64,000 nt of DNA. Origin: Escherichia coli (GTDB lineage: Bacteria; Pseudomonadota; Gammaproteobacteria; Enterobacterales; Enterobacteriaceae). The translations under genes and the position numbers were made by a program. Location: assembly GCF_041248615.1 (NCBI RefSeq), contig NZ_CP158426.1. The stretch is one strand, 5' to 3'. The notes under the pieces are model-generated. The model saw only the letters and a list, made by a program, of their open reading frames with translations, searched no databases and was not told the origin of the DNA. Positions 15,651 to 22,875 of this stretch are shown piece after piece; the stretch's first letter is position 1; the number at the start of each line of letters is the position of its first letter.

Positions 15651-15690
15651 CGCACAGAATGTGATGTCAGCACTCTGTGCGTCTGCTTTT
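15651..15690 (+). terminator. terminator-like hairpin after eamA (GCACAGA...TCTGTGC followed by a T-rich tract)
   Basis: read directly; approximate coordinates. Confidence 0.35.
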
Positions 15691-16387
15691 ATCGCGGGAA
15701 AAAGTACTTTACCTGGAACTCGAAAATATTGCTGTAAAGTAACGAATAATCCAGCGGAATAGAGTTACTGTCCACAGCCTGGGTCTGAATTTTAAGTATG
15801 GGATCCCGTGGGCTGATCCGTAAAATACTGGCGATTTCTGGGGTAGGAAAAGTAGGGGAGAAAGTTTCAAAGGTGCCAATGATTTTGATCCCGCATTCGT
15901 TCTCAATATACGAAAATTTGGATTTTTGCATATGTGCTACGGTTAAATCAGGAAAACGTGCCACTGACATCCACGTTTCTTCTAATTGTGCTGCATTATC
16001 CTCAATGAATCGCAGTCTCTTTATGTAATAAACCTGCTCACCAGTCACTAAATTCAGCTCAGTCGCAATAGGGGGAGAAGCATCCTGCACTTCAAATTTC
16101 ATAATCTGACTTCCTGCCTCCTTGCCGCTTTTATGCGCAATTTCACTGAAGCTGTTCATGTGATCAATGTGTGCAACAAAATTCTTTTTTTGAATATATG
16201 TTCCTGAACCATGCTTTCTATGAATAATTCCTTCGCCTTCCAGCAAGGATAATGCCTTACGCAGGGTATTACGCGAAACATTATAACGAACAGCGAGTTC
16301 AGCTTCTGACGGCAACAAATCACCAACATGCCATGAATAGCCATTGATCTCGGATTTAAGTAAGCGGGCAATCTTTTGAAAAATCAC
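15689..16387 (-). CDS. GntR/HutC-family regulator (HTH plus UTRA domain), bgcR-like
   Basis: 232-aa ORF, probably GTG-initiated; HTH near residues 25-60; divergent from the PTS genes. Confidence 0.7.
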   Translation of the reverse strand: MIFQKIARLLKSEINGYSWHVGDLLPSEAELAVRYNVSRNTLRKALSLLEGEGIIHRKHGSGTYIQKKNFVAHIDHMNSFSEIAHKSGKEAGSQIMKFEVQDASPPIATELNLVTGEQVYYIKRLRFIEDNAAQLEETWMSVARFPDLTVAHMQKSKFSYIENECGIKIIGTFETFSPTFPTPEIASILRISPRDPILKIQTQAVDSNSIPLDYSLLYSNIFEFQVKYFFPR

Positions 16388-16585
16388 TTTTGCACCTTTT
16401 AAGAGCCATTGAAAACAAGGAGTTGAGTCCTGATTGGTTTATCGTATGGTCGAGTCGTTTAATTATCACCCTGATGTTGAACAACTTTAGTGCTGTATTA
16501 CTGTGATCAATGTACCAGGACGTATAGCTACTGCGGGATATGATATTTACACAATGTAATCTGTTATATACCAGTAAGGGAAAAT

Positions 16586-16897
16586 ATGAAAAAGATATTG
16601 TTAGTTTGCGCTGCGGGCATGTCAACCAGTATGCTGGTTAAACGTATGATTGATCATGCTAACGCTATTTCACTTGAAGTTAATATTTCCGCATTGGCGA
16701 TTGCAGAGGCTAAAGGGAAAATTAAAAATAACGAAGTTGACGTTGTTTTACTTGGCCCGCAAGTTCGCTTTCAGAAACCAGAGATTGAAGCTGTTGCACA
16801 GGGGAAAATGCCTGTAGCTGTTATCGAGATGAAAGACTATGGCACCATGAACGGACAGGCAGTTCTTGAATTTGCGATGAAACTACTGCAAGAGTAA
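16586..16897 (+). CDS. PTS lactose/cellobiose-family EIIB component
   Basis: 103-aa ORF; N-terminal KILLVCAAGMSTS phospho-cysteine motif. Confidence 0.8.
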   Translation: MKKILLVCAAGMSTSMLVKRMIDHANAISLEVNISALAIAEAKGKIKNNEVDVVLLGPQVRFQKPEIEAVAQGKMPVAVIEMKDYGTMNGQAVLEFAMKLLQE

Positions 16898-17010
16898 GAA
16901 TCTAATATTATTAAACTATTACCTGAACTAACTTTTCACACATCATAAAATGGATATGGCATACATGCTTTATTGGGATGTATAAATATCCAGAACAACA
17001 GGTATAAAAA

Positions 17011-20401: not shown

Positions 20402-21099
20402 TCTATTTTAGTTAAGGAGTTGTGTATGTCAGGATTTAAAAAAGGTTTTTTATGGGGCGGCGCGGTAGCCGCGCATCAGTTGGAAGGTGGCTGGAATGAA
20501 GGAGGAAAAGGCATCAGTATCGCTGATGTGATGACTGCTGGCGCTCACGGTGTGCCGCGTGAAGTGACAGAAGGCGTTATCGACGGACTTAATTATCCCA
20601 ATCATGAAGCAATTGATTTTTATCATCGCTATAAAACAGATATTCAGTTATTTGCCGAGATGGGATTCAAATGCTTTCGAACTTCCATTGCCTGGACACG
20701 AATCTTTCCGCAAGGTGACGAACAGGAGCCGAATGAAGAGGGTTTAAAATTTTATGATGATCTGTTCGATGAATGCCTGAAGCAGGGAATGGAACCTGTG
20801 GTGACGCTTTCGCATTTTGAGATGCCTTATCATCTGGTGACAAAATATGGTGGCTGGCGAAACCGTAAACTGATCGACTTTTTCATCCGCTTCGCATCAA
20901 CGGTCTTCACGCGCTATAAAGAAAAAGTAAAGTACTGGATGACGTTTAACGAAATCAATAATCAGGTGAATTTCAGCGAAAGCCTGTGTCCATTTACTAA
21001 TTCCGGTATCTTGTATTCGCCAGAGGAAGATATCAATGAGCGCGAACAAATAATGTACCAGGCGGTACATTACGAGTTAGTTGCCAGTTGGATTTGCCC

Positions 21100-22005
21100 C
21101 TATATTTCCAGACACCTGTTATCACTTAACCCATTACTGGCCTGCTGCCGCAGATATTCCCGTGGCGAGCGATAACCCAGTGCACTATGCGGATGCCATT
21201 CGTTATAATGCTCGAACGCCTCTGCAAGGTTCTTTGCTGCCGTTAACCCGTCTGGTTTAGGCATGATACTGATGTAGTCACGCTTTATCGTTTTCACGAA
21301 GCTCTCTGCTATGCCGTTACTCTCCGGACTCCGCACCGCCGTGTTCTTCGGTTCAAGCCCCAATATCCGGGCAAACTGCCGTGTTTCATTAGCCCGGTAG
21401 CATGAACCATTATCCGTCAGCCACTCTACTGGAGACGCCGGAAGCTCGTTGCCGAAGCGGCGTTCCACCGCTCCCAGCATGACGTCCTGTACTGTTTCAC
21501 TGTCGAAGCCGCCCGTAGTGACTGCCCAGTGCAGTGCCTCACGGTCACAGCAGTCCAGCGCGAACGTGACTCGCAGTTTTTCTCCGTTATCACAGCGGAA
21601 CTCGAACCCGTCAGAGCACCATCGTTGATTGCTTTCTTTCACGGCCACTTTGCCAGTATGTGCCCGTTTCGATGGCGGTACAGCGGTTTTTCGCTCAAGC
21701 AACAGCGCATTCTGGCGCATGATCCGGTAAACACGTTTGGCATTGATCGCAGGCGTACCATCAAGTTCGGCCTGTCTGCGAAGCAGCGCCCATACCCGAC
21801 GATAACCATACGTGGGCAGCTCTCCGATAACATGGTGTATACGGAGAAGCACATCCGTATCATCTGAGTGACGGCTGCGGCGACCATCTTTCCAGTCATC
21901 GGTTCGTCTGAGAATTACGTGCAACTGCGCACGCGACACCCGGAGACAACGGCTGACTAAGCTTACTCCCCATCCCCGGGCAATAAGGGCGCGTGCGCTA
22001 TCCAC
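21100..22005 (-). CDS. insD: IS2 transposase InsD (orfB; DDE integrase domain)
   Basis: 301-aa ORF recognised as IS2 InsD; overlaps insC in the -1 frame. Confidence 0.85.
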
Positions 22006-22328
22006 TTTTTTGCACGCCCGTATTCAACGGCTTCTTTAAGGAGTTCATTTTCCATCGTTTTTTTGCCGAGCAGGCGCTGGAGTTCTTTAATCTGCTTCAT
22101 GGCAGCAGCAAGTTCAGAGGCAGGAACGACCTGCTCTCCTGCGGCCACAGCAGTAAGACTTCCCTCCTGGTATTGCTTGCGCCAGAGAAATAACTGGCTG
22201 GCTGCCACACCGTGTTGCCGGGCAACAAGGGAGACCTTCATTCCCGGTTCAAAACTCTGCTGAACAATAGCGATCTTTTCCTGTGTAGTACGCCGTCTGC
22301 GTTTCTCCGGTCCTAAGACATCAATCAT
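21963..22328 (-). CDS. insC: IS2 transposase InsC (orfA; HTH)
   Basis: ORF track 21963..22373; ATG at 22328 gives the 121-aa [18 protein letters not shown] start. Confidence 0.8.
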
Positions 22329-22875
22329 CTGCTCTCCAATGACTAGTCTAAAAACTAGTATTAAGACTATCACTTATTTAAGTGATATTGGTTGTCTGGA
22401 GATTCATGGGGCCAGTCTACTGGTCAGCAACCCTTATATCGATACATCCGAATGGGGATGGCAAATTGATCCGGCAGGGCTACGTTATTCACTCAACTGG
22501 TTCTGGGATCATTTCCAGTTGCCGCTGTTTATTGTCGAAAATGGATTTGGTGCGGTTGACCAGAGACAAGCTGACGGCACGGTGAACGATCACTATCGCA
22601 TTGATTACTTTGCTTCCCATATTCGGGAAATGAAAAAAGCCGTAGTCGAAGATGGTGTTGACTTAATTGGCTACACCCCATGGGGCTGTATTGACCTGGT
22701 TTCTGCCGGAACAGGGGAAATGAAAAAGCGCTACGGAATGATTTACGTCGATAAAGACAACGAAGGGAAGGGAACCCTGGAACGGATACGTAAAGCGTCG
22801 TTTTACTGGTATAGGGATCTCATCGCCAACAATGGCGAAAATATTTGAGACTTCAGGAAGATATTACGGAGATAT

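What the first reader, a model, noticed from the sequence alone, without database searches (positions are those of the whole stretch)
15689..22848. Accessory beta-glucoside utilisation island (bgc-like) inserted between eamA and marB
A GntR regulator is divergent from PTS EIIB, EIIC and EIIA genes (cellobiose/lactose family), a LamB/ScrY-family porin and a GH1 phospho-beta-glucosidase. In K-12, as I recall, eamA and marB are adjacent. The gene set matches the bgc operon described in septicaemic and uropathogenic E. coli, and it sits immediately beside the mar locus.
Basis: partly seen in the sequence, partly recalled or inferred. Interest (0 to 1): 0.5.

Follow-up and report, generated by a model that had tools for sequence, protein, structure and literature searches.

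The report
Known bgc beta-glucoside operon, IS2-broken
This is the already described bgc sugar-uptake operon that about half of E. coli strains carry between eamA and marB, and in this strain its last gene has been destroyed by an IS2 insertion plus a 348-bp deletion, so it is an ordinary, partly decayed accessory locus.

Summary
They are a GntR/UTRA regulator (minus strand), PTS IIB, IIC and IIA of the lactose/cellobiose family, a LamB/ScrY-type porin and a GH1 6-phospho-beta-glucosidase. K-12-type strains have eamA next to marB with none of these genes.

A 1331-bp IS2 (21089-22419) replaces codons 222-337, and there is no target-site duplication. Both IS2 junctions occur in only 1 of 5426 complete E. 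coli genomes. A 100%-identical relative (isolate 362) has the intact gene.

The six-gene block is present in 2562 of 5426 complete E. coli genomes, always at this site, including CFT073 (96.5-98.4% nt identity, similar to the flanking genes). It is collinear with marBAR in E. albertii at 80-84% nt. So it is an old Escherichia locus that many lineages lack, not a recent mobile island. Citrobacter and Salmonella diarizonae carry the same block elsewhere in their chromosomes.

Gene content and order match the published bgc operon (Neelakanta et al. 2009), but I could not retrieve that sequence to compare directly. Verdict: already known, with a strain-specific knockout. Low interest.

The parts
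14745..15644 (+). eamA (O-acetylserine/cysteine exporter), the left flanking core gene. Its last three codons lie inside the variable segment (...KVRG* here, ...KVGS* in K-12-type strains).
   Evidence: Annotation of the identical record; alignment with the empty site.
15647..15685 (.). Hairpin between the convergent eamA and bgcR genes; a probable bidirectional terminator belonging to the island.
   Evidence: Inverted repeat I2; fold of -17.4 kcal/mol, z = -2.6.
15689..16387 (-). bgcR: GntR-family (HutC subfamily, wHTH + UTRA) regulator, transcribed divergently from the operon.
   Evidence: Pfam GntR 1.4e-18 and UTRA 9e-30; NCBIfam; same protein accession WP_000577190.1 annotated in the window's own record and in strain MS 57-2.
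16388..16585 (.). bgcR-bgcE regulatory region. It contains a block TGTGATCAATGTACCA (16502-16517), CRP-box-like with 2 mismatches. Fourteen of its 16 positions are invariant in E. albertii, Citrobacter and S. diarizonae (form TGTGAYCAATGTAMCA), and it lies about 22 bp upstream of a TATGAT hexamer (16540-16545).
   Evidence: Assigning it to CRP and/or BgcR binding is inference.
16586..16897 (+). bgcE: PTS EIIB, lactose/cellobiose family.
   Evidence: TIGR00853 at 1.2e-24.
17011..18333 (+). bgcF: PTS EIIC, lactose/cellobiose family.
   Evidence: TIGR00410 at 1e-100, above its cut-off.
18361..18672 (+). bgcI: PTS EIIA, lactose/cellobiose family.
   Evidence: NF007768 and TIGR00823; annotated start.
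18728..20401 (+). bgcH: outer-membrane carbohydrate porin, a LamB barrel with a ScrY-like N-terminal extension.
   Evidence: Pfam LamB 1.2e-81 (residues 147-557) and Sugarporin_N 2e-6 (residues 30-56).
20426..21088 (+). bgcA 5' fragment (codons 1-221 of the GH1 6-phospho-beta-glucosidase). It retains the NEI acid/base motif at residues 175-177.
   Evidence: 100% identical to isolate 362 up to 21088; annotated as a pseudogene missing its C-terminus.
21089..22419 (-). IS2 (IS3 family), 1331 bp. InsC/OrfA is at 22373-21963 and InsD/OrfB at 22005-21100, both on the minus strand. The terminal inverted repeats are imperfect. There is no 5-bp target duplication, and the element replaces 348-349 bp of bgcA.
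   Evidence: NCBIfam IS2 TnpA and TnpB above cut-off; IS2 copies match exactly this span; IR alignment; flanks GCCAGT / CTGGTC.
22420..22848 (+). bgcA 3' fragment (codons 338-479). It retains the ENG nucleophile motif at residues 377-379.
   Evidence: annotated as a pseudogene missing its N-terminus.
22875..22898 (.). 10-bp GC-rich hairpin between the convergent bgcA and marB genes; a probable bidirectional terminator belonging to the island.
   Evidence: Fold of -18.8 kcal/mol, z = -3.3; partly conserved in E. albertii.
22905..23123 (-). marB, the right flanking core gene. Homology with island-free strains resumes at 22903.

Best explanation
The interval is the chromosomal bgc locus of E. coli. 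It consists of a divergent GntR/HutC-type regulator gene (bgcR) and a five-gene operon (bgcE-F-I-H-A).

In an intact copy the expected pathway is as follows. The LamB/ScrY-type porin BgcH lets beta-glucosides (cellobiose, arbutin, salicin) cross the outer membrane. The Lac/cellobiose-family PTS (IIB BgcE, IIC BgcF, IIA BgcI) imports and phosphorylates them. The GH1 enzyme BgcA then hydrolyses the 6-phospho-beta-glucoside to glucose-6-phosphate plus glucose or the aglycone. According to the literature, transcription is driven from the bgcR-bgcE intergenic promoter under CRP and BgcR control.

In this strain (NRZ14408) the last step is lost. An IS2 element sits in bgcA and 348-349 bp (codons 222-337 of the TIM barrel) are deleted. 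Excision of the IS cannot restore the gene. The regulator, transporter and porin genes remain intact.

The knockout is a recent event private to this strain. The locus itself is an old, vertically inherited Escherichia module that about half of E. coli genomes carry at exactly this site.

What is shown here: gene identities, the IS2 insertion and deletion, the distribution across genomes, and synteny. What is inferred from family knowledge and the literature: substrates, regulation and the phenotype.
For: - Source and annotation: the window is 100% identical to NZ_LT599825.1, whose annotation calls two partial 'family 1 glycosylhydrolase' pseudogenes around an IS3-family transposase.
- Family scans: GntR+UTRA, PTS IIB/IIC/IIA (Lac/cellobiose), LamB+Sugarporin_N. 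The intact BgcA from relatives scores 1036 bits against a cut-off of 624 for 6-phospho-beta-glucosidase. IS2 TnpA and TnpB are also above cut-off.
- The deletion: isolate 362 is 100% identical over 12200-21088 and 99.97% from 22421 onward. It has a 1440-bp intact bgcA, and the window lacks its positions 8890-9238. The same result is obtained against strain MS 57-2.
- Rarity of the knockout: each IS2/bgcA junction is found in 1 of 5426 genomes. Full-length bgcA is present in 2536 of the 2561 genomes with any bgcA DNA.
- Distribution: island DNA is in 2562 of 5426 genomes, with one copy as a rule, on the chromosome.
- CFT073: the six genes are intact between marB and eamA, at 96.5-98.4% nt identity, against 96.8-99.1% for eamA and marRAB.
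- E. albertii type strain: bgcREFIHA-marBAR is collinear at 80-84% nt for bgc and 84-90% for mar.
[quoted passage not shown] 2009). bgc is listed among the four cryptic beta-glucoside operons of E. coli (PMC4488073). CFT073 c1955-c1960 is described as a six-gene 'PTS system, cellobiose specific' set (PMC2831201).
Against: - The original bgc paper and the i484 sequence could not be read or compared. Equating this locus with 'bgc' therefore rests on gene content and order, secondary citations, my recollection of the abstract, and the presence of the locus in CFT073.
- None of the sampled database names for these proteins says 'Bgc'.
- Substrate specificity cannot be read from sequence. The IIC and IIA subunits also score against chitobiose models, although below their cut-offs.
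- Loss of phenotype is inferred. Other phospho-beta-glucosidases in the genome could substitute for BgcA.
Confidence: 0.9

Rival explanations
1. The locus is still physiologically useful in this strain. The intact porin and PTS genes import and phosphorylate beta-glucosides, and another phospho-beta-glucosidase encoded elsewhere (BglA, AscB, BglB or ChbF type) hydrolyses the product. On this view the IS2 event is nearly neutral rather than a knockout of the pathway.
For: bgcR, bgcE, bgcF, bgcI and bgcH are full length, and three of them are identical in protein accession to those of strains with an intact operon. From general knowledge, E. coli has several GH1/GH4 phospho-beta-glucosidases with overlapping specificity.
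Against: Not tested here. According to the literature the operon is cryptic even when intact (PMC4488073), so expression is doubtful. bgcA is kept full length in about 99% of carriers, which argues that the cognate enzyme matters when the system is used.
Confidence: 0.2
2. The block is a recently acquired, horizontally transferred genomic island that inserted between eamA and marB in pathogenic lineages.
For: The island has lower G+C (42.6%) than the 10-kb flanks (48.2%). The same six-gene block, ending exactly at the bgcR and bgcA stop codons, lies in unrelated chromosomal contexts in Citrobacter sp. On2M and S. enterica subsp. diarizonae. It is absent from K-12-type strains.
Against: No integrase, tRNA gene or flanking direct repeats were found. 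Divergence between E. coli lineages equals that of the flanking core genes. The same junction with marB is found in E. albertii at about 17% nt divergence. Carriers include animal, food and environmental strains as well as clinical ones. Horizontal acquisition probably did occur, but before the E. coli / E. albertii split.
Confidence: 0.1
3. The system is a chitobiose (chb-like) or other non-glucoside disaccharide PTS rather than a beta-glucoside system.
For: IIC and IIA give significant but sub-threshold scores to the N,N'-diacetylchitobiose models: NF007634 at 280 bits against a cut-off of 760, and NF007768 at 105 against 148.
Against: The hydrolase is a GH1 6-phospho-beta-glucosidase, scoring well above its cut-off. 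It is not a GH4 ChbF-type enzyme, and no deacetylase gene is present. The literature reports growth on cellobiose, arbutin and salicin (PMC3585215).
Confidence: 0.03

Closest known systems
bgc operon of E. coli (bgcR / bgcE-F-I-H-A; Neelakanta, Sankar & Schnetz, Appl Environ Microbiol 2009, PMID 19233952)
   Same: A divergent GntR-type regulator. PTS IIB, IIC and IIA of the Lac/cellobiose family, then a porin, then a GH1 phospho-beta-glucosidase, in the same order. Present in the uropathogenic strain CFT073 and in E. albertii. Homologues in Citrobacter, Klebsiella and Enterobacter.
   Different: Here bgcA is split by IS2 and has lost codons 222-337. Identity to the published i484 sequence could not be measured. 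Prevalence in today's complete genomes (47%, many of them non-clinical) is broader than the 'septicemic and uropathogenic' label in the paper's title suggests.
bgl operon (bglGFBH) of E. coli
   Same: A cryptic aryl-beta-glucoside PTS system that also includes a LamB-family porin (BglH) and a GH1 phospho-beta-glucosidase (BglB).
   Different: bgl uses a single glucose-family EII (BglF) and an antiterminator (BglG). It has no three-subunit Lac/cellobiose-family PTS and no GntR regulator, and it lies at a different chromosomal locus.
chb (celABCDF) and asc operons of E. coli
   Same: chb has separate IIB, IIC and IIA subunits of the Lac/cellobiose family. Both operons are cryptic for cellobiose.
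   Different: chb uses an AraC-type regulator, a GH4 hydrolase and a deacetylase, and has no porin. asc uses a LacI-type repressor and a glucose-family EII.
IS2 insertional inactivation with adjacent deletion
   Same: A canonical 1331-bp IS2 with an OrfA/OrfB frameshift arrangement and imperfect inverted repeats. The chromosome carries 12-13 copies.
   Different: It lacks the usual 5-bp target duplication. This is consistent with an IS-mediated adjacent deletion, or with recombination between two IS2 copies. Which of the two occurred cannot be told.

Membership tests
bgc operon (Neelakanta et al. 2009) | Divergently transcribed GntR-type regulator gene (bgcR) next to the operon | tested here: met
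   15689-16387(-) has GntR and UTRA domains. A 198-bp divergent intergenic region separates it from bgcE.
bgc operon (Neelakanta et al. 2009) | Separate PTS IIB, IIC and IIA genes of the lactose/cellobiose family (bgcE, bgcF, bgcI) | tested here: met
   NCBIfam TIGR00853, TIGR00410 (above cut-off) and NF007768/TIGR00823.
bgc operon (Neelakanta et al. 2009) | Porin gene (bgcH) within the operon | tested here: met
   LamB at 1.2e-81 plus Sugarporin_N. That bgcH is the porin of the operon is from my recollection of the abstract. PMC3585215 says the operon has five genes but names only four of them.
bgc operon (Neelakanta et al. 2009) | Intact phospho-beta-glucosidase gene (bgcA) | tested here: not met
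   The gene is split at codon 221/338 by IS2 with a 348-349-bp deletion. It is intact in the 100%-identical isolate 362 and in 2536 other genomes. The window therefore holds a defective allele of the locus.
bgc operon (Neelakanta et al. 2009) | Sequence identity to the published bgc locus (strain i484; CFT073 orthologue) | tested here: inconclusive
   CFT073 carries the same six genes at 96.5-98.4% nt identity. The i484 sequence and the paper are not held. That c1955-c1960 corresponds to this site is consistent with PMC2831201 but was not shown directly.
bgc operon (Neelakanta et al. 2009) | CRP-dependent, BgcR-activated promoter; growth on cellobiose, arbutin or salicin at low temperature after promoter mutation | not testable with these tools
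   Only a conserved CRP-like block at 16502-16517 was seen.
IS2 (IS3 family) | About 1.33-kb element with OrfA/OrfB joined by a programmed frameshift and imperfect terminal inverted repeats | tested here: met
   1331 bp. IS2 TnpA at 273 bits and TnpB at 701 bits, both above cut-off. The record annotates a 'programmed frameshift'. IR alignment.
IS2 (IS3 family) | 5-bp target-site duplication flanking the element | tested here: not met
   The flanks are ...GCCAGT and CTGGTC.... The missing 348-349 bp explain the absence of a duplication.
Classical mobile genomic island | Integrase or recombinase, tRNA/tmRNA attachment site, flanking direct repeats | tested here: not met
   No such genes appear in the annotation. 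No direct repeats at the ends. No Rfam hit, which would include tRNA or tmRNA, in 15000-24200.
Classical mobile genomic island | Atypical base composition and presence/absence polymorphism | tested here: met
   42.6% G+C against 48.2% in the flanks. Present in 47% of complete genomes.

The most novel reading that the evidence does not exclude
The IS2-truncated allele may not simply be dead. With porin, PTS and regulator intact but no cognate hydrolase, induction would load the cell with non-metabolised phospho-beta-glucosides. That could act as a sensing or growth-arrest device. Alternatively, transcription out of IS2 or the truncated operon, convergent with marB, could change expression of the adjacent marRAB locus in this clinical isolate.
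Probability: 0.03. Interest if true: 0.35.

Novelty: already known. Interest (0 to 1): 0.1.

Why it matters
It matters little. The locus is a described, cryptic beta-glucoside system, and RefSeq already annotates the IS2 break as pseudogene fragments.

Three points are of modest use:
1. This strain should be scored bgc-defective in any metabolic or pan-genome typing.
2. The locus is better described as an old Escherichia module shared with E. albertii and lost from many lineages than as a pathogen-specific island.
3. bgcA is kept full length in about 99% of carriers, which hints that the 'cryptic' operon is under selection somewhere in nature.

Tried and rejected
- Reading the original bgc paper (PMC2675225): not held. 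Literature searches for bgc gene names, for c1955/c1960, and for bgc together with marB/eamA gave only secondary mentions.
- Looking for 'Bgc' names among members of the protein clusters: only generic names were found in the 40 members read per cluster.
- Flanking direct repeats or mobility genes at the island ends: none found.
- Rfam families in 15000-24200: none.
- Consensus promoter and terminator scan: no more sites than in shuffled sequence, so uninformative. A window-wide CRP pattern search gave fewer hits than chance overall, so the 16502-16517 site rests on cross-genus conservation and not on the scan.
- The 113-bp bgcE-bgcF spacer: its fold is not better than shuffles (z = -1.5), so I did not pursue it.
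- A functional link to mar: nothing beyond adjacency. The genes are convergent with a hairpin between them.
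Full report
**Where the window comes from.** Positions 14700-24000 are 100% identical to the chromosome of E. coli isolate NRZ14408 (NZ_LT599825.1).

**Checking the observation.** ORF listing and translation give the following genes.

| Coordinates | Strand | Product |
|---|---|---|
| 14745-15644 | + | eamA |
| 15689-16387 | - | 232-aa protein |
| 16586-16897 | + | 103-aa protein |
| 17011-18333 | + | 440-aa protein |
| 18361-18672 | + | 103-aa protein |
| 18728-20401 | + | 557-aa protein |
| 22905-23123 | - | marB |

Profile scans identify these products as follows:
- a GntR wHTH + UTRA regulator (HutC subfamily);
- PTS IIB, IIC and IIA of the lactose/cellobiose family;
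- a LamB-barrel porin with the ScrY-type Sugarporin_N extension.

Reading frames for a GH1 enzyme exist only as two pieces, 20426-21088 and 22420-22848. Between them, on the opposite strand, lie 136-aa and 301-aa ORFs that score as IS2 TnpA and TnpB, above NCBI's cut-offs.

**The IS2 event.**
- IS2 copies elsewhere in E. coli match exactly window 21089-22419, which is 1331 bp. The element has the expected imperfect terminal inverted repeats.
- Strain MS 57-2 and the otherwise 100%-identical isolate 362 both carry an intact 1440-bp gene. Against them, the window is collinear up to 21088 and again from 22421. The intervening 348-349 bp of the gene (codons 222-337) are absent.
- The flanks (GCCAGT | IS2 | CTGGTC) carry no 5-bp duplication. 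This was therefore either an insertion followed by an adjacent deletion, or recombination between two IS2 copies.
- The NEI (residues 175-177) and ENG (residues 377-379) catalytic motifs survive on separate fragments, but about a quarter of the TIM barrel is gone. Excision of the IS cannot restore the gene.
- Each IS2/bgcA junction occurs in 1 of 5426 complete E. coli genomes. Of the 2561 genomes that hold any bgcA DNA, 2536 hold it at full length.
- The knockout is recent and private to this strain. RefSeq already annotates the two halves as partial pseudogenes.

**Boundaries and nature of the 'island'.**
- Against a K-12-type genome in which eamA and marB are 30 bp apart, homology ends at 15634, inside the last codons of eamA. 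The C-terminus reads KVRG here and KVGS in K-12. Homology resumes at 22903, two bases before the marB stop.
- The variable segment is 5937 bp without IS2, at 42.6% G+C against 48.2% in the flanks.
- It brings its own hairpins at both ends, at 15647-15685 and 22875-22898. The empty allele has a different single hairpin.
- There are no flanking direct repeats, no integrase or tRNA, and no Rfam family.

**Distribution.**
- Island-specific DNA (15700-21000) is found in 2562 of 5426 complete genomes and is nearly complete in 2495. It is almost always a single chromosomal copy.
- Hosts range from human clinical isolates to cattle O26 STEC, chicken, pig, dog, yak, soil and water.
- CFT073 has the six genes intact between marB and eamA. 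Nucleotide identity to the window is 96.5-98.4% for the bgc genes and 96.8-99.1% for eamA and marRAB. The block has therefore diverged in step with its flanks.

**Other species.** A scan of one genome per bacterial species with the porin found 32 loci.
- In the E. albertii type strain the order bgcR-E-F-I-H-A-marB-marA-marR is collinear with the window. Identity is 80-84% nt for bgc, 84-90% for mar, and the bgcA-marB spacer is recognisable. The contig begins inside bgcR, so the eamA side is not seen.
- In Citrobacter sp. On2M and S. enterica subsp. diarizonae the same six genes occur in the same order at about 73% nt. Similarity starts and stops at the bgcR and bgcA stop codons, and the flanks are unrelated.
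- In Klebsiella, Raoultella, Enterobacter, Cedecea, Kluyvera and Buttiauxella the regulator-PTS-porin core is kept. In many of them the glucosidase gene lies upstream on the other strand.
- My reading is that this compact module has moved between enterobacterial genera, entered this site before E. coli and E. albertii separated, and is missing from about half of present E. coli. Whether the K-12 empty allele is a secondary loss or a retained or re-imported ancestral allele was not resolved.

**How it works.** This part is inferred from the protein families and the literature.
- The porin admits beta-glucosides through the outer membrane. The IIA-IIB-IIC phosphorelay imports and phosphorylates them. 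The GH1 enzyme splits the 6-phospho-beta-glucoside.
- PMC3585215, citing Neelakanta et al. [quoted passage not shown]
- PMC4488073 lists bgc among the four cryptic beta-glucoside operons of E. coli.
- In the 198-bp bgcR-bgcE region, the 16-bp block TGTGATCAATGTACCA (16502-16517) keeps 14 of its 16 positions unchanged across Escherichia, Citrobacter and Salmonella, although the surrounding sequence is only about 73% identical between those genera. It lies about 22 bp upstream of a TATGAT hexamer. That geometry would suit a class II CRP-dependent promoter, but this is conjecture.
- In NRZ14408 the pathway ends after uptake unless another phospho-beta-glucosidase substitutes. That possibility is my main rival explanation, at about 0.2.

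**Comparison with what is known.**
- Content, order, the divergent GntR regulator, and presence in CFT073 and E. albertii all match the bgc operon.
- I could not read the original paper or compare with its sequence. The equation of CFT073 c1955-c1960 (a six-gene 'PTS system, cellobiose specific' set, PMC2831201) with this site is consistent but indirect.
- I file the locus as bgc with high confidence. The feature 'intact bgcA' was tested and is not met in this window.
- It is not a classical mobile island, and nothing ties it functionally to mar.

**Verdict.** The locus is already known. The only feature particular to this window is an ordinary IS2-mediated pseudogenisation that the public annotation already flags. 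Interest is 0.1.

Noticed in passing
L005 (E. coli VCSW5, NZ_CP082355.1) 2490-3293: Another kind of decay at the same site. An internal deletion leaves only the 3' end of bgcR fused to the 3' 600 bp of bgcA, between eamA and marB. This shows that island-bearing lineages can lose most of the block while keeping island-type junctions.
   Followed up: partly
Hits H67 (strain 20KM2228) and H99 (strain 81): Independent IS insertions in the bgc block in other strains: ISVsa5 in one, and IS1A with loss of about 20% of the block in the other.
   Followed up: no
summary line: Five of the 2571 places matching island DNA are on plasmid records rather than chromosomes. I did not look at which plasmids these are or whether they are misassigned contigs.
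   Followed up: no
window 15635-15644: The last three codons of eamA belong to the variable segment. Island-bearing strains encode ...KVRG*, K-12-type strains ...KVGS*. The two alleles of the site therefore differ in the EamA C-terminus as well as in the spacer.
   Followed up: partly
window 22339-22848 (+): An ATG inside the IRL end of IS2 opens a 169-aa frame that runs in frame into the bgcA 3' fragment. The 5' fragment likewise reads 87 nt into IS2 before a stop (20420-21175). These are probably meaningless fusion ORFs.
   Followed up: no
window 16898-17010 and alignment A5: The 113-bp spacer between bgcE and bgcF is unusually long for this operon. Short complementary CCTGA / CAGGT elements bracketing it are invariant in E. 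coli, E. albertii, Citrobacter and S. diarizonae. The single-sequence fold is not significant (z = -1.5).
   Followed up: partly
L012, L014-L016, L018-L020, L029, L036: In Klebsiella, Enterobacter, Cedecea, Ewingella and Buttiauxella the bgcA homologue (76-79% aa) lies about 2.5 kb upstream of bgcR on the opposite strand instead of downstream of the porin. In several Kluyvera, Raoultella, Enterobacter and Cedecea loci no bgcI passed my tblastn filter.
   Followed up: no
cluster 4: In the 90%-identity protein collection, the porin (557 aa) and the unrelated 6-phospho-beta-glucosidase (479 aa) are reported in one cluster of 14022 members. This is presumably a clustering artefact caused by fused or read-through gene calls.
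   Followed up: no
window 21089-22419; The NRZ14408 chromosome holds 12-13 places matching IS2, so IS2 is abundant in this genome. Other IS2-associated rearrangements may exist elsewhere in the strain.
   Followed up: no
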